DNA from: a virus
Lineage: Duplodnaviria > Heunggongvirae > Uroviricota > Caudoviricetes
Strand: one strand, 5' to 3'
IMG/VR virus record: IMGVR_UViG_2721755712_000002
Length of the DNA stretch: 10,019 nucleotides
Shown: positions 111 to 10,019 of the stretch, piece by piece
Layout of the letters: every line of letters begins with the position of its first letter
Numbering within the stretch: position 1 is the first letter of the stretch
Notes under the pieces: generated by a model
The model's input: only the letters and a program-made list of their open reading frames with translations
Databases searched by the model: none
Told to the model about the DNA's origin: nothing
Program-made: the position numbers and the translations under genes

Positions 111-434
111 TTACTGTCTCTGGCAATCTTTATCGCGATAACGCCTGAAGTACCCTCTCGCTTCCTCATCCATACCAAGAGCCGAATGAGTCCGCTTACC
201 AACATCCATCAATCCACTGAGAACGCCATACATAAAACGGTCGAAACCGTTAGCATTATTAACAACATTTTCCTGTCTGGAATTTTCCTCTGGTGAAACC
301 AAAGGTGATTGCTGCTGTTCTGGTTGGGCATCAAGCACAAAACCATCAGGAAGCTGTGAACTATCAGGAAACTGTGAGTTATCAGGTTGTTCATCGAGCA
401 CAAAACCTTCCGGTAAGATTACATTTGCTGCCAT
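111..434 (-). CDS. Hypothetical protein (107 aa) with an internal tandem peptide repeat
   Basis: ATG 434 with AGGAA upstream, overlapping the 3' end of the 447-aa gene by 16 nt. Repeat PEGFVLDEQPDNSQ / PDGFVLDAQPEQQQ, acidic and Gln-rich. Stop TAA at 111. Confidence 0.45.
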   Translation of the reverse strand: MAANVILPEGFVLDEQPDNSQFPDSSQLPDGFVLDAQPEQQQSPLVSPEENSRQENVVNNANGFDRFMYGVLSGLMDVGKRTHSALGMDEEARGYFRRYRDKDCQRQ

Positions 435-1762
435 TTTCCGTTCCTGTAAATGATTTTCTGACCAGTTTTAGGGTTGGTTGCCGTTGCGCCTTCTGATATT
501 CCTCCGGTTGCCGCTTTTGCCTGTCCAGTGCCAGCCTGTGATGTAGGCTGCCCGGAAACATCGTCAAATAGCTTCGCTTTCCTTCTTTCAAGGCTTTTTC
601 TTAGCCCCTGAGGAATAGTTTCTCCATATGTATCGAGATACTCGTCAACCTGCTGGTTAAACTGCTGCCCCATAGCATTGGCGTTGATTTTTGCGGCGTT
701 AACAATGTTATCCTTTGCCTCCTGCGACAGGCCGTTTCCAGCATTAAGCTGGTCTATGTATCCTTTGATTTGTCCCCATATGCCATCAGACCGCATTACC
801 TGAACCTGTTCGCCTTCACGAACGACTGACTGCGGGTCAAGAGATTTCATGTAGTTGAAGATAATCCCAAGTTGGGCAGCGCCAGTATTTACCTTGCTAA
901 GGGCTTGCAGAGAGTTTGCCGCCGCTCTGACAGAGTTATAATTTTTGCCAAAATTGGTAATGTCAGAATTTAATCCCTTAATTAAGTCTGCTGACGGCTT
1001 ACCTTTTTGCCCCAGCTCCATTAGCTTCAATCCCATCTCATCTGAGTGAATTTGTGCTCGCTGAGCCCTGTCTAGTTGAGCGTTCTGGATATTTGCCCAT
1101 CCTCTCGCGTTCTCCATGTCAGCCTGACGCATACTTTCATCCAGTCGCCCTTGCTCAAGTCGACGACCTTCCATTTGATCTTTGATATCGAAATACTTCT
1201 CATGACCGAGAGAAAACAGCGCCAGATTACCTGCGAAATGCTGGAAGCCCTGCGGGTCATTAACCTGCATTTCAGCAATAGTTTCTGGAGGGATACCTAA
1301 ACGACGCATCTCCTGCTCATTATCCATCATGAACCTGCCAAATGCGCCCTGACCAAGCGATGAGGCTACCTGTGCTTTGAGCGCCAGATTGCCATAATCA
1401 TCCCTTTGAGCATCATCGACATAACTCATCCCTTTACGGACTTCCTCAAACTCTTCTGGGAATGCTGTAATAAGATTACGCATCTGCTCCCTGTCACCGG
1501 ACGCATAAGCATCTGCATAACCTTTCTGGAATGCCGCTTTACGTTCCTGCTGTTGCTGCTGCTTATAAATGTCAGCAACTCCAGCCAGACCACGAAGACC
1601 TGTCAGAGCAACGTTATTTGCACCTGAGCGAGCCAGTTCATTGTTTTCGCGGATCAGACCAAGCGTTGCGTTAATGTCGCTTGCCTTTGGCGCATTCTCA
1701 TTTTGCGCACCGATGCCAGCCAGAAAACCACCAGAATTAATACCCTGTTGCCACGTAGCCAT
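419..1762 (-). CDS. Hypothetical protein (447 aa from ATG 1762; 451 aa if GTG 1774), Q/N/G/A-rich, possibly structural or coiled-coil
   Basis: Long ORF with consistent codon usage. ATG 1762 lies 5 nt after the upstream stop; GTG 1774 is the alternative. Contains a QQQQQ run and Gly/Asn-rich segments. No Shine-Dalgarno clearly visible. No catalytic motif recognised. Confidence 0.75.
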   Translation of the reverse strand: MATWQQGINSGGFLAGIGAQNENAPKASDINATLGLIRENNELARSGANNVALTGLRGLAGVADIYKQQQQQERKAAFQKGYADAYASGDREQMRNLITAFPEEFEEVRKGMSYVDDAQRDDYGNLALKAQVASSLGQGAFGRFMMDNEQEMRRLGIPPETIAEMQVNDPQGFQHFAGNLALFSLGHEKYFDIKDQMEGRRLEQGRLDESMRQADMENARGWANIQNAQLDRAQRAQIHSDEMGLKLMELGQKGKPSADLIKGLNSDITNFGKNYNSVRAAANSLQALSKVNTGAAQLGIIFNYMKSLDPQSVVREGEQVQVMRSDGIWGQIKGYIDQLNAGNGLSQEAKDNIVNAAKINANAMGQQFNQQVDEYLDTYGETIPQGLRKSLERRKAKLFDDVSGQPTSQAGTGQAKAATGGISEGATATNPKTGQKIIYRNGKWQQM

Positions 1763-1766
1763 AAAT

Positions 1767-1940
1767 TTACCCACGTCCAGTTAAAGTGTAAGCCAGCGCC
1801 TTATCCATTAATCCCCGAGCAATTTCGTGGATCGTTGGCGCAACTCCTACCTCTGATTTTTTACGCTGCTCCTCCTGAATTTTCTTTATCGCTTCCATTT
1901 GCTTCTCACTTATCAATACTGGCTTTACTGAAATAGCCAT
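1767..1940 (-). CDS. Small protein (57 aa), possibly ribbon-helix-helix (CopG/Arc-like) DNA-binding
   Basis: ATG 1940 with AAGGGGGG Shine-Dalgarno 4 nt upstream. The 100-aa ORF-track version (to 2069) is an unsupported extension across the terminator hairpin. Predicted pattern of strand (ISVKPVLIS) then two helices; the fold is inferred only. Confidence 0.55.
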   Translation of the reverse strand: MAISVKPVLISEKQMEAIKKIQEEQRKKSEVGVAPTIHEIARGLMDKALAYTLTGRG

Positions 1941-3677: not shown

Positions 3678-4457
3678 TTAAAAAACATCATAACCCCCCA
3701 TACCGATCAGACGGGCAAACGCAGCCTGTAGAACTCCGACCTCTGGTAGTTCGTAGAACACGCCATTCCCTCGGTCTGGTCTTCCATGCTTCACCAGCCC
3801 CATTTGTGCAAGTGATTTACCCAGTAGTGATCTGGCAGCTGGTTCTTTAAGCTTTTCCCCACGCTCAAGCGACCACGCTACAAATCGACTAACCATATCC
3901 TTTGCAAACAAACGGACTTCGCCATTAAACGGAGGTTCATTGATTAGCTCGCCATAAAGAAACAATTCAACGCCAGACAGCCCCAGCAAGATTTCTTCAC
4001 GTAAGGCATCGGTCTGTGGCGCTCGTTGAGGGTCAAAACCTGAGAGATCCACCCCTTTAAGATGCCAAAGCAACTTTGCGGCACCGCCATCATTAAGCCA
4101 ACTGTACAGCCGATCAAAATACTCCCGGCTCTGTGCTTTTTCAGGAGATGGCTCAAGCACGAGATAGCGGCGCTCTCTTATCCCTGCCTGTAATACCTGT
4201 GTGCTGTTACTGGCAAATATCAACCGGGCAAAATTCGGCATTGGTTCAGCATCAATTCCCTTGCGCTCAAGGTTAAACGTCGGTTCGCTAATAATCGCTT
4301 CCTGAATAGCTTCTGGTACGCCATTGAGCAGTGACATAACCGCGCCAATCATTAACTTGTCTCTGTTGCTTGGGCTGGCCCCTTCAAGCCAGAACCCTAA
4401 AACAGTCTGAACCTGTTCGATGCGACATTGCGCTTCAATGAGCTGGATGTTGGTCAT
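3678..4457 (-). CDS. Primase-helicase C-terminal-like protein (259 aa); helicase motif C and arginine-finger-like segment, no Walker A in this ORF
   Basis: GGAGAG Shine-Dalgarno 6 nt upstream of ATG 4457. Segment ARLIFASNSTQVLQAGIRERRYLVLEPS resembles the motif C (hhhhS/T-N) plus Arg-finger region of SF3/P4-family primase-helicases. No GxxxxGK(S/T) P-loop is present. Product assignment is from recalled motifs only. Confidence 0.65.
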   Translation of the reverse strand: MTNIQLIEAQCRIEQVQTVLGFWLEGASPSNRDKLMIGAVMSLLNGVPEAIQEAIISEPTFNLERKGIDAEPMPNFARLIFASNSTQVLQAGIRERRYLVLEPSPEKAQSREYFDRLYSWLNDGGAAKLLWHLKGVDLSGFDPQRAPQTDALREEILLGLSGVELFLYGELINEPPFNGEVRLFAKDMVSRFVAWSLERGEKLKEPAARSLLGKSLAQMGLVKHGRPDRGNGVFYELPEVGVLQAAFARLIGMGGYDVF

Positions 4458-4717: not shown

Positions 4718-4908
4718 TTTTCACCACCAAGAATTACCAGCTCTGCACGGGCATCGTTAACCAAAGATGAGCACGCTTTAATCGCATCCACGACATCAGC
4801 AGCGTCCATTTCTTCAGCCGAAAGACTGACAGCAACCAGGACAGCCGCTGCTTGCTCGATTAATTGAAGTGCGGACGTAAGGCGAGGGGTATTAATTGAG
4901 TTATTCAT
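4714..4908 (-). CDS. Small hypothetical protein (64 aa)
   Basis: ATG 4908 with ACGGGGG Shine-Dalgarno-like sequence upstream; 8-nt overlap with the upstream gene; stop TGA overlaps the next ATG (ATGA). Confidence 0.5.
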   Translation of the reverse strand: MNNSINTPRLTSALQLIEQAAAVLVAVSLSAEEMDAADVVDAIKACSSLVNDARAELVILGGEK

Positions 4909-5119
4909 TGGTTGCCCCCGTTTTTACTGGCATTTCGCCACCTTCCAGCAGGAAATGAACGTCACGAACGGCGAGATCCAATATCGCGAGTAACGCCTTC
5001 AGTCTTTCGTCTCGTGAGGGAGAGTTGCTCACCAGAATGTCGTTAATCACTTCTGTCAGTGTGATGATCTGGCTTGTGCGTTCGAGGGGATCCATATGCA
5101 CATCGTAGGTTTTAATCAT
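4901..5119 (-). CDS. Small hypothetical protein (72 aa)
   Basis: ATG 5119 preceded by GGAGGTGG; ATGATTAA overlap with the upstream gene's stop. Corresponds to the C-terminal 72 codons of the 355-codon ORF. Stop TAA overlaps the next ATG (ATGAATAA). Confidence 0.5.
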   Translation of the reverse strand: MIKTYDVHMDPLERTSQIITLTEVINDILVSNSPSRDERLKALLAILDLAVRDVHFLLEGGEMPVKTGATNE

Positions 5120-5306
5120 GTGCCACCTCCATGCGGATACGACCAGCAAAAAAGCAGACGTGATCGCGCACCAGAGAACGGCGAGCATCGCGTTCAGACT
5201 CGGCAGCAATATGATGAATTTTGGCGGTAATTGTCGGGCAATCGCGGCGAACTGCGGCGATAATCCAGATAAATTGCGTTTTTTGGGTAGGGGTAGTAGC
5301 CAGCAT
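5112..5306 (-). CDS. Small hypothetical protein (64 aa)
   Basis: AAGGAGG Shine-Dalgarno 7 nt upstream of ATG 5306. Codons are E. coli-like (CGC, CTG, GAT, GCC) in this frame, whereas the overlapping frame of the 355-codon ORF is rare-codon-rich here. Stop TAA forms an ATGATTAA overlap with the next gene. Confidence 0.5.
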   Translation of the reverse strand: MLATTPTQKTQFIWIIAAVRRDCPTITAKIHHIAAESERDARRSLVRDHVCFFAGRIRMEVAHD

Positions 5307-5968
5307 GTGGCAGCCTCCTTCAGATAGCAGGTTACGCTACCACCGGAAACGCCAATTTCGCTGGTGGTAGCCCAGACAGGGTTGGCGTAACCGGCTCTGA
5401 AGGATACCGGCGCTTCCGAAGAAGCCCCCGCCTGAGCCACCATTGATTGACAAAGGCGCTGGATTATACACCAACGCCCAAAAAATGGGTGAGTCAGACC
5501 TACGACATAAAAAAAGACGCTCGGCGCGTCATATGTCGCCTTCAGAATTTTTAGGACGCCAATCCCGGCACCCGTTTTATGAGGTGCCTTATAACCATAA
5601 ACCGTGTTGCCGCATAACGGCAAGCTCTTTTTTATGGACTCCGAAAACTCACTATTGGAAGAACCAGAAGCACAGTACATCGCGCTCATTTCGTTAACGT
5701 CACGCGCGTGGACGAAGGTTTTTGTGGAGTCACTACACGAGCAGAGAAAGCCATCTACGACCAGAAATTCTCTGGCATAGCCGCTGACCTTCTCAACGCT
5801 AACACCATCGACCGTAATTTCTGACATAGTTAAGGCATCCGCTCCTACCACCAGCAAATGATAAACTTTGCTTGTATCTGCTGTATTAATGTCTGACTTT
5901 GCTGTCATATTGCTGGATTTTGGCGACATACCAGCCAGTGAAAATATCTTCTTCTGGGCGGTTAGCAT
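5303..5968 (-). CDS. Hypothetical protein (about 221 codons) with no in-frame stop; the frame stays open to 4901, giving the 355-codon ORF in the track
   Basis: ATG 5968 has a GGAGG Shine-Dalgarno 7 nt upstream and overlaps the previous stop (ATGCTAA). Codon usage is good in this frame down to about 5306, then rare codons (CTA, TTA, CGA, ATA, AGG) appear while the -1 frame becomes well-coded. At the expected ATGA start/stop overlap the sequence is ATGC, so the 3' end given here is inferred. Confidence 0.55.
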
Positions 5969-6982: not shown

Positions 6983-7414
6983 TTAGGCGGCGTTAAACGC
7001 GTCCGGGTAGAGTTTCAGAATGTCGGCAATTTCCTGCTGAGAAAGTCCGTTGTGATCATTTATGTTCGCAAGATGGTTAACATGAGTGATCACTTTCAGA
7101 ACATCACCACGGCAGGAGAAACGGTAGCGAAGGTGTGTTCCGATACCATCAGGATTCTTTTCGTCGATACGCTCCAGAGTGATTCCAAGCTGGCGTTCTA
7201 ACTCTGTTGCATAGTTACGACCAGAAGACAGACGGCAGTAGCGAAGAATGTCATTTTCTGTCCATCCCTCTATACCAGTACGCAGCATATAGACTCGGGC
7301 ACGATGCTTTTTCGGTGTGCGCTTTGGTGCTTGAAGGGATTTTGTAAGGGGCGTAATATCAGATACGCGAATATCTGAATTAGCCGCCTGTAATGGGCGG
7401 TTTTTCTTTTCCAT
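6983..7414 (-). CDS. Hypothetical protein (143 aa), possibly DNA-binding; basic N-terminus
   Basis: ATG 7414..7412 overlaps the alpA stop. Lys/Arg-rich N-terminal segment (APKRTPKKHRAR), then a region that could be a winged helix. Codon usage consistent with neighbours. No family recognised. Confidence 0.65.
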   Translation of the reverse strand: MEKKNRPLQAANSDIRVSDITPLTKSLQAPKRTPKKHRARVYMLRTGIEGWTENDILRYCRLSSGRNYATELERQLGITLERIDEKNPDGIGTHLRYRFSCRGDVLKVITHVNHLANINDHNGLSQQEIADILKLYPDAFNAA

Positions 7415-7632
7415 CAGGCCACCTTCCCGCGGCGTTCTGCCAGCCAGTTATTAATTTCCACCGCATCAAACGCAGTCACGTTATCTGTTAGCTTCACTGG
7501 GCGTGGAAGAGTGCCATTTTTAACCCATCTATCAATAGTAGGCAGTGAAACACCTAGCAATTCCGGCATGCGAAAGCGACGGATGTATCCAGTTGTTGGG
7601 ATAGCTGATGATGCTGGCTTGTGTACTGTCAT
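7414..7632 (-). CDS. alpA: AlpA-family transcriptional regulator / excisionase-like DNA-binding protein (72 aa)
   Basis: Motif RMPELLGVSLPTIDRWVKNGTLPRPVKL matches the AlpA/Xis-type helix-turn-helix signature (TI-x-RW-x-K-x-G-x-P-x-P-x-KL). First gene after the AT-rich control region. Stop TGA overlaps the next ATG (TGATG). Confidence 0.8.
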   Translation of the reverse strand: MTVHKPASSAIPTTGYIRRFRMPELLGVSLPTIDRWVKNGTLPRPVKLTDNVTAFDAVEINNWLAERRGKVA

Positions 7633-7713
7633 GTCTCTAGTAACCTCTCTGATAGCTCATGAAGTTACTTAAAGTTTAGTGGTTGCCCATACAGTATTTC
7701 TATTAAGACTAGA

Positions 7714-7769
7714 ATCTATTGAAAGAAATTATAAATCTATTGAAAAAATACCGATCCACTGAAAGATTG
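7714..7769. promoter_or_regulatory. Three direct repeats of a (T)CTATTGAAA(G/A)A-like motif at 21-22 bp spacing, upstream of the AlpA-like gene; putative regulator or nucleoid-protein binding sites
   Basis: ATCTATTGAAAGAAATT at 7714..7730, ATCTATTGAAAAAATAC at 7735..7751, partial copy CCACTGAAAGATTG at 7756..7769. They sit 85-135 bp upstream of the minus-strand start at 7632, in a roughly 30% GC region. Confidence 0.35.
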
Positions 7770-7923
7770 CAAATGCAGGTGGGATAATTATTTTCTTTAT
7801 TTTCAATTAGTTACCAGTTTAAAAAATCATTGTTTTATCAAAGAGTTATATCTTTCATCGTCATTCATCATGTTTTTACATTTCTTTTTATCTTTTATTA
7901 TTCAATTGGTTGAGTCGGTTTAT

Positions 7924-7960
7924 AATGGCTCATGATGGCTTAAAATGGCTAATGATAGCT
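7924..7960. repeat. Tandem direct repeat, two 17-bp units with 20-bp period (AATGGCTCATGATGGCT / AATGGCTAATGATAGCT)
   Basis: Read directly: units at 7924..7940 and 7944..7960, 15 of 17 identical. A perfect TATAAT hexamer sits at 7921..7926 on the plus strand. Lies in the AT-rich integrase-proximal intergenic region. Confidence 0.5.
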
Positions 7961-8103
7961 GGCGTATCTTTTAGAGATGGGGTGATTACAGATGAACTAA
8001 GCCGAACAGATATAGCAATGGCTAGGCATAGAATTATCTATGCTGGTGGAGATGGGTAAACAGGTAATGCCCCGCCATTGCTTTGGAGGGGCGTGAAAAG
8101 TGA

Positions 8104-8754
8104 TTAGTCGAGATCGTGGACAGCTAATAAAGCCCGTGAGATTTTTTCTAGGAATGTGGCTTTTGCTATTCCTTTATGGGATATCCCTTCATCCTTGATT
8201 AAGGTTTCTATGTCACGGTATATAGCTGTGCGATTAGGTTTCCCATTTTGGATGTAGGAAGATGAGCCTGATTTTTTTATCAGCAGATGTACTATCAACC
8301 CCATCATTTTCATTGTCCCGTTTTCCTCATCCTGCTTTCTATGCTGCCCACGTCCGCTGCGGTTGGTTTCTTTGATGTAGTTTACTAACTGGAGTCCTCC
8401 AAGGTTTCGGGCTTTTTCTTCCCAGCCCTTGGTGCCACGCAAATCATCAATCGCTTCTGATATTTTCTGAACAATTATTTCTGGTGTATTTGTGTCAATA
8501 AATGGGTAAGAAGCTAAGAAAATATCAAGGGCATGGCAAGGCTCATCTTTACTAGTTTTTTCACCTCTGTACACCTTGATAGCTCTGGCAAGATGAGTTC
8601 TGACAAAATCGACATATTCGAAATTTTCCTCAGGCACATCGCTAATGCGCATAGATGGGTTTAGGCCAGCCAAGGCCACAGCCATTTCATGAGGGGTAAT
8701 CGATACAGATGAACAAAGCCGTTCGATTGGCGATTTTCTCAAGATGTTGTTCAC
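8104..8754 (-). CDS. Hypothetical protein (216 aa), AT-rich cargo gene translationally coupled to the integrase; function unknown
   Basis: ORF starts at GTG 8754..8752, overlapping the integrase stop TGA (ATGTGA); alternative in-frame ATG at 8685. About 40% GC in the counted segments against about 50% for the integrase. Stop TAA at 8104. No motif I can recognise. Confidence 0.6.
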   Translation of the reverse strand: MNNILRKSPIERLCSSVSITPHEMAVALAGLNPSMRISDVPEENFEYVDFVRTHLARAIKVYRGEKTSKDEPCHALDIFLASYPFIDTNTPEIIVQKISEAIDDLRGTKGWEEKARNLGGLQLVNYIKETNRSGRGQHRKQDEENGTMKMMGLIVHLLIKKSGSSSYIQNGKPNRTAIYRDIETLIKDEGISHKGIAKATFLEKISRALLAVHDLD

Positions 8755-10019
8755 ATTTGCCTCCGGGCTTTATCGAATGGCGTTACGTTGTAGTCTTTCC
8801 CGCTTTCCAGTGCCACCAGCAGATCTGCCCACTGTGCCAGTGCTGCTTTACGCTCATCAAAATACTGATGACGGTTATAAATCCCCTCTACGCCCTTAAT
8901 GCGATGATTGAGGCATCGTTCCGCCACGACAGGATCAACACCCAATGCTGCTAAATGAGTACGTGCGGTGCGTCGGAAGTCGTGAATCGTGAAATTAGGC
9001 ACATCCGGCATTTCGGCGCGAACCTTAGCCAGTGCTACGGGTAAAGTGCTTTCCTGAATATGTGGGATCATTCTGTTTTGCATCTTCCTGGCCGGAAGCA
9101 CCCATGCGCTATTACATGAAAAGGTGTGTAGCTCTCTCAACCATTCAACGGCTGGGGAAGGTAGAGGTATATCAATAGGGTCTCCGTTTTTGCTGCGTTC
9201 TTCCGGCAAATGCCATACCGCACCATCTAAATCAAACTCTTCCCATCGTGCGGCGCATAACTCCATCTTACGAACGCATAGTGCCAGCAATAGCTTAAAT
9301 GTCAGTTCGTTCTGGCGGCTGAATCCTTTTGCGGTGCGCATAGCCTCGAATAGCCTGATAAGCTCATCGCGAGTTAGCCAACGGTCGCGGGAAACCTCTT
9401 TACCACCAGCATCAGATACTTCAAACGCTGAACAAGGGTTTATCTCCAGAGCGTGGCGTTTTATCCCATAGTCAAAGATACGGCGTGTCCAGCGTAATAC
9501 ATCTGTTGCTATCGTTGGTGCTCCTCGGTCAACGATACCTTTTAACATGTCGTCAATGTGACGTGGCTTAACGTCCTCTACCTTCATATGCCCAATGCAG
9601 GGGTTAATATCCTTATCAATTCTCCGGCGAAGGATATCGGGATGTTTCCATCTCGGAAGTATCTGTCGCTCGAAGTATTCGGCGGCCAGATCTGAAACGC
9701 GCATGGCGTTTTTCTCAGCCTCCATTTTTGCCAGTGCTTCAGCTTTTCGTTCCTGTTTTTCTGCTGCTACGTCATAGCCAAGAGCAACTCTGGCTGACAG
9801 CTCTTTTGCTGTTTCTCTGGCTTTTGATAGTGACAGTTCGGAGTAAGAGCCGATAACCATAGCCCGCTGTTTTCCTGCGAGCTTATATCGGAATCGCCAG
9901 AACGGGACTGTGTAGTTTTTGGGGTAGCAAATATAAAGGCCGTTGCCGTCTGCCTTGCCATCAAATCTGTCTCCCGCCTTTATCCATGCGCGGATCTGCA
10001 TATCTGTGAGTTTTGGCAT
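8751..10019 (-). CDS. int: Tyrosine recombinase / site-specific integrase, P4 family (422 aa)
   Basis: The ATG is the last three bases of the window. N-terminus MPKLTDMQIRAWIKAG...GNGLYICY...WRFRYKLAGKQ is typical of the P4-integrase arm-binding region. C-terminal catalytic region contains HDFRRT (His-x-x-Arg), LNH and GIYNRHQY (candidate tyrosine nucleophile). Family assignment is from recalled motifs, not a search. Confidence 0.9.
   Translation of the reverse strand: MPKLTDMQIRAWIKAGDRFDGKADGNGLYICYPKNYTVPFWRFRYKLAGKQRAMVIGSYSELSLSKARETAKELSARVALGYDVAAEKQERKAEALAKMEAEKNAMRVSDLAAEYFERQILPRWKHPDILRRRIDKDINPCIGHMKVEDVKPRHIDDMLKGIVDRGAPTIATDVLRWTRRIFDYGIKRHALEINPCSAFEVSDAGGKEVSRDRWLTRDELIRLFEAMRTAKGFSRQNELTFKLLLALCVRKMELCAARWEEFDLDGAVWHLPEERSKNGDPIDIPLPSPAVEWLRELHTFSCNSAWVLPARKMQNRMIPHIQESTLPVALAKVRAEMPDVPNFTIHDFRRTARTHLAALGVDPVVAERCLNHRIKGVEGIYNRHQYFDERKAALAQWADLLVALESGKDYNVTPFDKARRQM

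What the first reader, a model, noticed from the sequence alone, without database searches (positions are those of the whole stretch)
8104..8754. AT-rich 216-aa cargo gene translationally coupled to the integrase
The ORF starts at a GTG overlapping the integrase stop (ATGTGA) and is about 40% GC in the segments I counted, against about 50% for its neighbours, followed by a roughly 30% GC intergenic region. This suggests a separately acquired gene inserted into the slot between the integrase and the AlpA-like regulator, which tends to be variable in P4-integrase islands. The protein has no motif I recognise. Single-gene abortive-infection or defence proteins often occupy such positions.
Basis: partly seen in the sequence, partly recalled or inferred. 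Interest (0 to 1): 0.6.

Follow-up and report, generated by a model that had tools for sequence, protein, structure and literature searches.

The report
Integrase-coupled satellite gene with promoter array
The 216-aa gene is real and sits in a swappable slot of an E. coli phage satellite, but it looks less like a defence gene than like an uncharacterised integrase-coupled protein that always travels with a conserved four-repeat DNA array at the promoter of the satellite's master switch gene alpA.

Summary
ORF 8104-8754 (- strand) starts at a GTG that overlaps the integrase stop (ATGTGA). It has a GGAGG 5 nt upstream, 42.4% GC against 49.3% for int and alpA, and a 471-nt, 34% GC spacer after it.

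The slot is variable. Of 319 E. coli genomes with this integrase, 109 carry this cassette. Others carry at least four unrelated AT-rich genes of 281-321 aa.

The gene is not random cargo. It belongs to a small family seen here only in Enterobacterales (phrog_30524, no Pfam, NCBIfam or significant PADLOC match). The AF2 model is confident (pLDDT 90.5) but matches no solved or viral fold. In all 14 distinct contexts examined the gene lies directly after a P4-type integrase, in several satellite types.

It also co-occurs with a four-site direct-repeat array (TTTCAATGGAAT-like, about 20-nt spacing, last site at the -35) upstream of the next operon. DNA-only scans recovered 20 full arrays. All 18 with enough upstream sequence had a family gene upstream. 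Sister cassettes with near-identical alpA lack the array.

Best reading (about 0.4): a DNA-binding regulator of the alpA promoter, made together with Int. Rivals are an excision cofactor like PICMI IOLG, or defence cargo. No function has been tested.

The parts
8751..10019 (-). P4-type tyrosine integrase (422 aa). The island is inserted next to yicC.
   Evidence: Pfam Arm-DNA-bind_3, Phage_int_M and Phage_integrase. Flanked by yicC in E. coli E8.
8760..8764 (-). GGAGG Shine-Dalgarno for ORF216, inside the 3' end of int, 5 nt before the GTG.
   Evidence: Sequence read directly.
8104..8754 (-). ORF216, an integrase-overlapping gene and member of phrog_30524. It is all-alpha with two domains. The most conserved segment is RGxHRKxDE (residues 135-143), and the C-terminal half is basic.
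8014..8082 (.). Inverted repeat just after the ORF216 stop: 16-nt arms, 88% complementary, 37 nt apart, containing the AGCCAT motif. No T-run follows, so it is not a clear intrinsic terminator.
   Evidence: I2. The scan found no terminator-like site on the - strand here.
7917..8031 (-). Gene-proximal short direct repeats (TAAGCCATnA-like). Units sit 10 nt apart in the gene-strand sequence and pair into 20-nt repeats. Repeats at the equivalent position in other family loci have different sequences.
   Evidence: (D1, D3).
7697..7764 (-). Four-site direct-repeat array S1-S4: TTTCAGTGGATC, TTTCAATAGATT, TTTCAATAGATT, TCTTAATAGAAA. Spacing is 19, 21 and 16 nt. S4 lies at the -35 position of the putative alpA promoter.
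   Evidence: (D2). The 3-site pattern matched in 0 of 200 shuffles.
7673..7678 (-). Candidate -10 hexamer TAAACT for the alpA operon. A TAnnnT hexamer is present at the same place in 11 loci.
   Evidence: Read from the sequences. Inference; the simple promoter scan did not list it.
7639..7669 (-). Hairpin in the alpA 5' UTR (AGTAAC...GTTACT) that encloses the alpA Shine-Dalgarno. It is present in both cassette types.
7414..7632 (-). AlpA-family regulator, first gene of the operon downstream of the array.
   Evidence: Pfam Phage_AlpA 6e-6.

Best explanation
ORF216 is the integrase-coupled half of a two-part regulatory cassette of P4-integrase phage satellites.

Proposed mechanism:
- The protein is translated from the int transcript, through its own SD and a 4-nt stop/start overlap.
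- It is an all-alpha protein of two domains with an unrecognised fold. The N-terminal half is neutral to acidic. The C-terminal half is basic and carries the most conserved motif (RGxHRKxDE) and an HTH-like 'G-x-x-K-S-T-F/Y-x-x-K' tail.
- I propose that the C-terminal half binds the four phased TTTCAATGGAAT-type repeats lying 60-130 nt upstream of the alpA start codon, with the last repeat over the -35 position. In this way it would set or gate transcription of the alpA operon, the satellite's induction switch.

Shown: the int coupling, the family, the fold novelty, the array, and the near-exclusive co-occurrence of array and gene.

Inferred: DNA binding, the promoter assignment, and the regulatory role. 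The sign of regulation (repressor held off by a helper signal, or helper-responsive activator) is unresolved. The genetics of the positionally analogous PICMI iolg, whose loss abolishes induction, would fit an activator or co-factor.
For: 1. Positional conservation. In 14 of 14 distinct contexts a family member lies directly after a P4-type int: 4-nt overlap in 5, 1-nt overlap in 1, 1-nt gap in 2, 9-98 nt gap in 4 (one of the 14 retains only an int remnant upstream). This holds at protein identities of 21-83%, across yicC-site and ssrA-site islands, P4-like elements with DUF927 primase and Ogr, and a capsid-forming PICI-like element.

2. Array follows the gene. A cluster of at least three PWM sites with fixed 19-21/20-21/16-17 nt spacing lies upstream of the next gene in 11 of 12 loci where the family gene is followed by that operon. 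The twelfth has weaker copies.

3. The array is independent of the downstream gene. It is present before AlpA proteins only 25-35% identical to each other, and before non-AlpA genes (a 94-aa protein in L002/L031 and a 206-aa protein in L022). It is absent from sister cassettes L005-L008, whose alpA is 92-98% identical to the window's.

4. DNA-only searches find the protein. The IMG/VR scan gave 3 full arrays, and 2 of the 2 with upstream sequence have the gene. The metagenome scan gave 17 full arrays, 16 with a family gene directly upstream on the same strand; the 17th has only 182 nt of upstream sequence.

5. The array sequence is conserved while the proteins have diverged to 21-30% identity. 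The most conserved protein block is 131-150, and the C-terminal half is net basic.

6. S4 overlaps a weak -35, 17-19 nt from a conserved TAnnnT hexamer.

7. Scattered sub-threshold HTH hits occur in individual members: Phage_AlpA, HTH_Tnp_Mu_2, HTH_20, SpoIIID, and PADLOC 'DNA binding HTH'.

8. Literature. How helpers switch on alpA in Gram-negative PICIs is unknown, and no repressor has been identified (PMC6092414). In PICMI115, int and iolg are constitutive while alpA is phage-induced (PMC10803314).
Against: - Gene and array could be linked only by shared descent of a cassette, with the array bound by a host or helper factor.
- Two family contexts (L009, L016) have other cargo between the gene and alpA, lack this array, and instead carry a 3x TATCCGGAC array. 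The gene therefore persists beside int without this array, which fits an int-related role.
- Many metagenome arrays are near-identical copies, giving about six distinct types.
- The PWM was built from the loci it first scored.
Confidence: 0.4

Rival explanations
1. Integrase cofactor, the functional equivalent of PICMI IOLG. The protein is made stoichiometrically with Int and takes part in the excision or integration complex, for example as an architectural or directionality partner together with AlpA. The promoter array would be unrelated to it.
For: The stop/start overlap with int matches the defining feature of iolg. In PICMI115, iolg is needed for excision, packaging and transfer, and iolg occurs as 13 unrelated families between int and alpA (PMC10803314). 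The family stays fused to int even where the array is missing and extra cargo intervenes (L009, L016).
Against: The same integrase (96-99% identical) works in islands with unrelated slot genes that are not overlapping (18-95 nt gaps). Integrases 72-73% identical pair with family proteins only 22-24% identical, so there is no int/partner co-evolution. This reading does not explain the array association. The PICMI result itself does not separate a role in the excision complex from a role in switching on alpA.
Confidence: 0.22
2. Anti-phage or helper-interference cargo: a single-gene defence or abortive-infection protein carried in the 5' accessory region of the satellite.
For: The slot is swapped between otherwise near-identical islands and always holds AT-rich genes of unknown function. 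PICIs are reported to carry immune systems at their 5' or 3' ends (PMC11364771). Divergence is fast relative to int. One alternative occupant has a weak PADLOC candidate hit, PDC-S31 at E 0.002.
Against: No significant PADLOC hit for ORF216 or 33 relatives. No Cys, His or Asp appears among the invariant or nearly invariant positions. The strict int-adjacency and the cognate promoter array are not expected for exchangeable defence cargo. In L009 and L016 the real extra cargo sits after the family gene, not in place of it.
Confidence: 0.15
3. Replication or maintenance module. The protein would bind the gene-proximal 10-nt-phased repeats next to the 22-26% GC stretch, acting as an iteron-binding initiator or partition adaptor.
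For: Blocks of 10-nt-phased tandem repeats followed by a very AT-rich stretch lie downstream of most family genes. Some blocks (GTTCAC/T units in L002, L003 and L021) resemble, from my memory, P4 alpha-protein iterons (TGTTCACC).
Against: The repeat sequences differ between and within loci, so a single specific binder is unlikely. The satellites encode their own primase-helicase. No NTPase partner is present. No Rep or ParB-like similarity was found.
Confidence: 0.08

Closest known systems
IOLG (integrase-overlapping gene) of Vibrio PICMI satellites (Nat Commun 2024, PMC10803314)
   Same: It lies directly after int, with a 4-nt stop/start overlap, between int and alpA in a small phage satellite. 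Its function is unknown. It occurs as many unrelated families, and large non-coding regions lie nearby.
   Different: No sequence relationship is detectable. All 34 representative relatives and all 67 clusters come from contigs or names pointing to Enterobacterales. A requirement for excision has not been tested here. A promoter-array partner is not described for IOLG.
SaPI Stl / PICI Rpr master repressors
   Same: The gene lies next to int, is transcribed in the same direction as int, is highly divergent between otherwise similar islands, and would control the promoter of the induction/replication operon.
   Different: Stl and Rpr are transcribed divergently from the operon they repress and have recognisable HTH domains. 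ORF216 is co-directional with alpA, has no recognisable HTH, and its regulatory sign is unknown. Gram-negative PICIs are reported to lack a known repressor (PMC6092414).
Phage P4 late-left promoter (PLL) control by Vis, Cox, Ogr and delta, and P4 CI-RNA immunity (from my own knowledge of P4)
   Same: The alpA (vis-like) gene is the first gene of an operon that continues through an ash/CI-RNA region to the primase. C4 and isrK RNAs are present in the window. Phased direct repeats upstream of a helper-responsive promoter recall the Cox boxes.
   Different: The repeat sequence is unrelated to the Cox boxes or the Ogr/delta TGT-N12-ACA site as I recall them. The gene order is int-orf-alpA rather than that of P4. 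No sid-delta-psu was seen in the window.
Satellite defence hotspots (P4 cos-proximal hotspot; PICI 5'/3' accessory regions)
   Same: Rapid cassette swapping occurs between islands with near-identical core genes.
   Different: This slot lies between int and alpA and includes the alpA promoter. The occupant studied here has no defence-family match and is positionally fixed to int.

Membership tests
phrog_30524 (unknown function) | Full-length match to the family HMM | tested here: met
   E 3e-34 over residues 11-209. Relatives L002, L009 and L010 also match, at 1e-120 to 1e-24.
IOLG / int-overlapping gene of satellites | Start codon overlaps or abuts the int stop, on the same strand | tested here: met
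   GTGA 4-nt overlap. The same or near-same junction is seen in relatives.
IOLG / int-overlapping gene of satellites | Lies between int and alpA in a phage satellite | tested here: met
   The gene order is int, ORF216, alpA, antA, ash with C4 and isrK RNAs, then primase.
IOLG / int-overlapping gene of satellites | Required for helper-induced excision and transfer | not testable with these tools
   Needs genetics. Shown only for PICMI115 (PMC10803314).
IOLG / int-overlapping gene of satellites | Sequence homology to a PICMI IOLG family | not tested
The exhaustive profile search found only 34 representative relatives. All named relatives from the companion search are Enterobacterales.
Known anti-phage defence proteins (PADLOC-DB 2.0) | Significant match to a defence-system HMM | tested here: not met
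   0 hits for ORF216. Among 33 relatives only scattered hits with E >= 0.0014.
Known anti-phage defence proteins (PADLOC-DB 2.0) | Protects against phage when expressed | not testable with these tools
   Needs plaque assays.
Excisionase / RDF (Xis, Vis, AlpA, Cox, TorI type) | Small winged-helix protein (roughly under 120 aa, from my own knowledge) with a recognisable Xis, AlpA or MerR-type HTH | tested here: not met
   216 aa with two helical domains. No Pfam hit at threshold; only 1-2 relatives give sub-threshold Phage_AlpA hits.
Stl/Rpr-type satellite master repressor | Recognisable HTH DNA-binding domain | tested here: inconclusive
   A motif resemblance and a basic C-terminal half, but no significant family or fold match.
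Stl/Rpr-type satellite master repressor | Divergent transcription from the operon it controls | tested here: not met
   ORF216 and alpA are on the same strand.
P4-like / PICI-type satellite (the host element) | P4-type int, alpA, ash/CI-RNA region, primase, and no full phage morphogenesis module | tested here: met
   (C4 at 79.9 bits, isrK at 59.9 bits). The primase is truncated in this window but intact in strain E8.

The most novel reading that the evidence does not exclude
The ORF216 family is the missing helper-sensing switch of a class of Gram-negative satellites. It would be a new-fold, Int-co-translated transcription factor. Its fast-evolving N-terminal domain would read a helper-phage protein. 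Its conserved C-terminal half would occupy the four-repeat array at the alpA promoter. The whole gene-plus-operator cassette would be exchanged between islands to change helper specificity. That would make it a Gram-negative counterpart of SaPI Stl and a functional explanation for int-overlapping genes such as PICMI iolg.
Probability: 0.2. Interest if true: 0.8.

Novelty: new variant of a known kind. Interest (0 to 1): 0.6.

Why it matters
Induction of Gram-negative PICIs and P4-like satellites depends on helper-triggered expression of alpA. Neither the inducer nor any satellite-encoded sensor or repressor is known (PMC6092414), and the role of integrase-overlapping genes is an explicit open question (PMC10803314). 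This work offers a conserved protein-plus-operator-like module at exactly that promoter. It is present in about a third of one common E. coli island type and in related elements of Klebsiella, Yersinia and Serratia. That gives a concrete pair of molecules to test: one protein and one 70-bp DNA. It also shows that the int-alpA slot swaps regulatory regions, not just cargo, which affects how satellite hotspots are mined for defence genes.

Tried and rejected
- Family and sequence searches found nothing usable for ORF216: Pfam, NCBIfam and PADLOC were empty, and PHROGs gave only phrog_30524, a family of unknown function. PDB sequence searches with the full-length and C-terminal profiles were also empty.
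- The first AF2 model, built from 12 close homologues, was poor (pLDDT 65.8). It was replaced by a 33-sequence model (pLDDT 90.5).
- The search for related loci failed with the diverse alignment and found nothing with P0031 in IMG/VR.
- The genome-contig scan found only 2 loci.
- AlpA autoregulation as the explanation for the array was rejected. The array is absent where alpA is 92-98% identical and present before non-AlpA genes.
- Int arm-type sites were rejected. The array is about 2 kb from the att end, is absent with 99% identical int, and is present with int only 24-27% identical.
- A test of whether the gene-proximal repeats depend on the primase type was confounded, because the comparison island also has a different primase.
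- A correlation between the array variant (AATAGAT or AATGGAA) and the putative recognition helix was suggestive at best (and my reading) and is not used.
- RNAalifold on the alpA leader failed because of misalignment. Single-sequence folds were used instead.
- Rfam found no RNA family in the 7633-8103 spacer beyond a chance-level CRISPR-DR hit.

Full report
**Context**

All genes of the window lie on the - strand. In order they are:
- a P4-type integrase (8751-10019);
- the ORF in question (8104-8754);
- a 471-nt spacer;
- an AlpA-family regulator (7414-7632);
- a 'PM1773 family' protein, an AntA antirepressor and an 'ash family' ORF;
- a truncated DUF5906 primase;
- a P22-type DNA-ejection protein.

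The 2.6 kb around the finding is 100% identical to many E. coli chromosomes, largely ETEC isolates. There the element sits next to yicC. Rfam finds the C4 antisense RNA and isrK inside the 'ash' ORF. The element is therefore a P4-like or PICI-like phage satellite.

**Observation**

- The GTG at 8754 overlaps the integrase TGA within ATGTGA.
- A GGAGG lies 5 nt upstream.
- Exact GC is 42.4% for the ORF, 49.3% for int and for alpA, and 34.2% for the spacer, with 22-26% stretches.
- The ORF is about 2.5 SD below the rest of the window.
- Homologues start at the same codon and have a conserved N-terminus.

**Is the slot variable?**

Yes. The integrase occurs in 334 of 5426 complete E. coli genomes, 319 of them with at least 80% coverage. 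The ORF216 cassette occurs in 111 genomes, 109 of them complete, nearly always at 99% identity or more.

Other islands at the same site have 96-99% identical int and 92-98% identical alpA. They carry instead unrelated AT-rich genes of 321, 316, 281 or 293 aa (GC 36-41%). Homology breaks about 25 nt inside the int 3' end and resumes at or just before the alpA start. The swapped unit therefore includes the region upstream of alpA.

**Is ORF216 arbitrary cargo?**

No. It matches only phrog_30524, a family of unknown function. An exhaustive profile search of 1.84 billion representative proteins found 34 relatives. The word-indexed search found 67 clusters, and all named ones come from Enterobacterales: E. 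coli, Salmonella, Klebsiella, Buttiauxella, Yersinia, Serratia and Rouxiella. None has a Pfam domain of its own.

I examined 14 distinct genomic contexts. In every one the gene lies directly after a P4-type integrase:
- yicC-site islands of several genera;
- an ssrA/smpB-site E. coli island;
- Yersinia and Serratia P4-like elements with a DUF927 primase and Ogr;
- a 16.5-kb capsid-encoding element deposited as phage vB_KppS-Ant;
- a context where only an int remnant is left.

The junctions are a 4-nt overlap (5 loci), a 1-nt overlap (1), a 1-nt gap (2) or a 9-98 nt gap (4). The family evolves far faster than int. The Yersinia and Serratia integrases are 72-73% identical to the window's, but their partner proteins are only 22-24% identical. 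Low GC relative to int is a family trait in most members, with L009 and L016 as exceptions.

**The protein**

With a 33-sequence alignment, AlphaFold2 gives pLDDT 90.5 and pTM 0.60. The model is all-alpha, with two domains joined near residue 131-136.

Invariant or nearly invariant residues are G30, T90, P91, G119, R135, G136, E143, K149, L158, I178, G195 and K204. None is a Cys, His or Asp, so they do not suggest a catalytic site. The best-conserved block is 131-150 (RGxHRKxDE...KLxGLL). The C-terminal half is net basic and the N-terminal half is neutral to acidic. The tail 'IS-x-x-G-x-x-K-S-T-F/Y-x-x-K' resembles an HTH recognition helix of the resolvase or transposase type. That is my reading only. 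Support is limited to sub-threshold HTH hits in a few members.

**The spacer and the array**

*Architecture.* Upstream of alpA, at 7697-7764, lie four direct repeats: TTTCAGTGGATC, TTTCAATAGATT, TTTCAATAGATT and TCTTAATAGAAA. Their spacing is 19, 21 and 16 nt. The last repeat sits where a -35 would be, 17-19 nt from a TAAACT hexamer. The three-site pattern never occurs in 200 shuffles of the window.

*Occurrence.*
- The same architecture (consensus TTTCAATGGAAT) lies upstream of the next operon in 11 of 12 distinct loci where a family gene is followed by that operon. The twelfth has weaker copies.
- It does not track the downstream gene. It precedes AlpA proteins that are only 25-35% identical to each other, a 94-aa non-AlpA regulator (L002, L031) and a 206-aa protein (L022).
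- It is missing from the alternative cassettes, whose alpA is nearly the same as the window's.
- It does not track int, which is 24-100% identical across these loci.

*Reverse test.* I searched public DNA with array-only patterns.
- IMG/VR gave 3 full arrays. Two have upstream sequence, and both have the family gene upstream.
- JGI/ENA metagenomes gave 17 full arrays among 81 pattern hits. Sixteen have a family gene directly upstream on the same strand. The seventeenth has only 182 nt of upstream sequence.

*Caveats.*
- Many of these loci are near-identical copies, giving about six distinct types.
- The PWM came from the first set of loci.
- L009 and L016 carry other cargo between the family gene and alpA. 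They lack this array and instead have a 3x TATCCGGAC array before a different alpA type.

**Interpretation**

The gene and the array behave as one conserved module. The module sits at the promoter of the satellite's induction gene and is exchanged as a unit between islands.

The simplest mechanism is that the protein, made together with Int, binds the array and controls alpA transcription.

Published work leaves room for this. In Gram-negative PICIs, alpA is the helper-induced activator of the cycle, and neither the inducer nor any repressor is known (PMC6092414). In Vibrio PICMI satellites an 'integrase overlapping gene' (iolg) has these properties (PMC10803314):
- it has an ATGA overlap with int and lies between int and alpA;
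- it belongs to 13 unrelated families of unknown function;
- it is constitutively expressed with int;
- its deletion abolishes excision, packaging and transfer.

That phenotype would fit either an activator of the alpA regulon or a member of the excision complex. It argues against a simple repressor in that system.

I put the regulator model at about 0.4, an Int or excision cofactor at about 0.22, defence or interference cargo at about 0.15, and a replication or maintenance role at about 0.08. The remainder is unassigned. DNA binding, the promoter assignment and any regulatory effect are inferences. Nothing functional was tested.

**Comparison with the known, and novelty**

By position the gene is an enterobacterial int-overlapping gene. 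By sequence and fold it belongs to no characterised family. The fixed association with a promoter array has not been described in the papers I could search.

It fails the tested criteria for known defence proteins and for Xis/AlpA-type RDFs. It meets only part of the Stl/Rpr pattern.

I rate it a new variant of a known kind. Interest is 0.6, because it offers a directly testable protein/DNA pair for an open question in satellite biology.

Noticed in passing
window 5360-5447 (-) and 5510-5587 (-): The C4 antisense RNA (RF01695, 79.9 bits) and isrK (RF01394, 59.9 bits) lie on the same strand inside the 355-aa 'ash family' ORF (4901-5968), under the part that matches Pfam Phage_ASH (residues 124-232). 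The island therefore has P4-type RNA immunity, and part of the annotated CDS may really be RNA genes.
   Followed up: partly
window 7639-7669 (-); L003-L008, L018: A hairpin in the alpA 5' UTR (xGTAAC...GTTACx) encloses the alpA Shine-Dalgarno. The outer pairs differ compatibly between loci (AGTAAC/GTTACT, CGTAAC/GTTACG, CCCGTAAC/GTTACGGG, CCCCTAAC/GTTAGGGG). It is present in both ORF216-type and alternative cassettes, which suggests translational control of alpA.
   Followed up: partly
window 7917-8082; L002 7130-7330; L010 6766-6815; L013 6750-6800; L019 3835-3900; L021 3690-3860; L022 3760-3800: Blocks of 10-nt-phased tandem direct repeats lie just downstream of family genes. Their sequences differ between loci and even within one spacer. 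Examples are TAAGCCATnA; CATTCAACAG x4, ACGACACGTA x3 and TGTTCATCA x6; GTTGCCATCA x4; and GGGTYTCWAG x4. A 22-26% GC stretch follows. The function is unknown; candidates are iterons, Cox or Apl-like sites, or bent DNA.
   Followed up: partly
L005 1833-2798, L006 1825-2775, L007 1831-2676, L008 1839-2720: The alternative occupants of the int-alpA slot are 281-321 aa with 36-41% GC and have no Pfam or PHROG family. Three share a C-terminal segment (about 74 aa at 78% identity between L005 and L006; about 54-70 aa at 27-39% to L007) and a short N-terminal similarity, around unrelated middles. In my reading of the spacers, three of the four (L005, L006, L008) are followed by a clear terminator-like hairpin. 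The alpA upstream region is then only about 110 nt and has no repeat array.
   Followed up: partly
window 3678-4457 (-) compared with L001 5878-9058: The primase is truncated in this window. Only the C-terminal 228 aa (92.5% identical) of the 783-aa DUF5906 primase of strain E8 remain, apparently fused to the start of an upstream small ORF. This copy of the island is probably replication-defective.
   Followed up: partly
L017 4506-7268 compared with L001 5878-8229: Islands at the same yicC site with 99% identical int carry different primase modules (TOPRIM+DUF927, 920 aa, or DUF5906, 783 aa). The backbone is therefore mosaic beyond the int-alpA slot.
   Followed up: no
L009 9960-10040; L016 11560-11630: A different three-copy direct-repeat array (TATCCGGAC-like, about 20-nt spacing) lies upstream of another alpA type. 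In these two islands the family gene is separated from alpA by extra cargo: a 390-aa gene on the opposite strand plus two small genes in L009, and a 1490-aa protein in L016.
   Followed up: no
window 419-1774 (-): A P22-type injectosome DNA/protein translocase gene (Pfam Inj_translocase, 2.5e-73) lies inside a satellite-like island. This hints at a P22-like helper, as reported for EcCIMP1 and phage Kapi1 (PMC11773190).
   Followed up: no
L003 (CACSKA010000004.1): The record is titled Chryseobacterium sp., but its integrase, family protein, AlpA and PM1773-like protein are 82-90% identical to the E. coli island. The contig is probably an enterobacterial contaminant or is mislabelled.
   Followed up: no
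window 6983-7414 (-): Recent RefSeq annotations name the gene after alpA 'PM1773 family protein'. The NCBIfam release searched here gave no hit for it.
   Followed up: no
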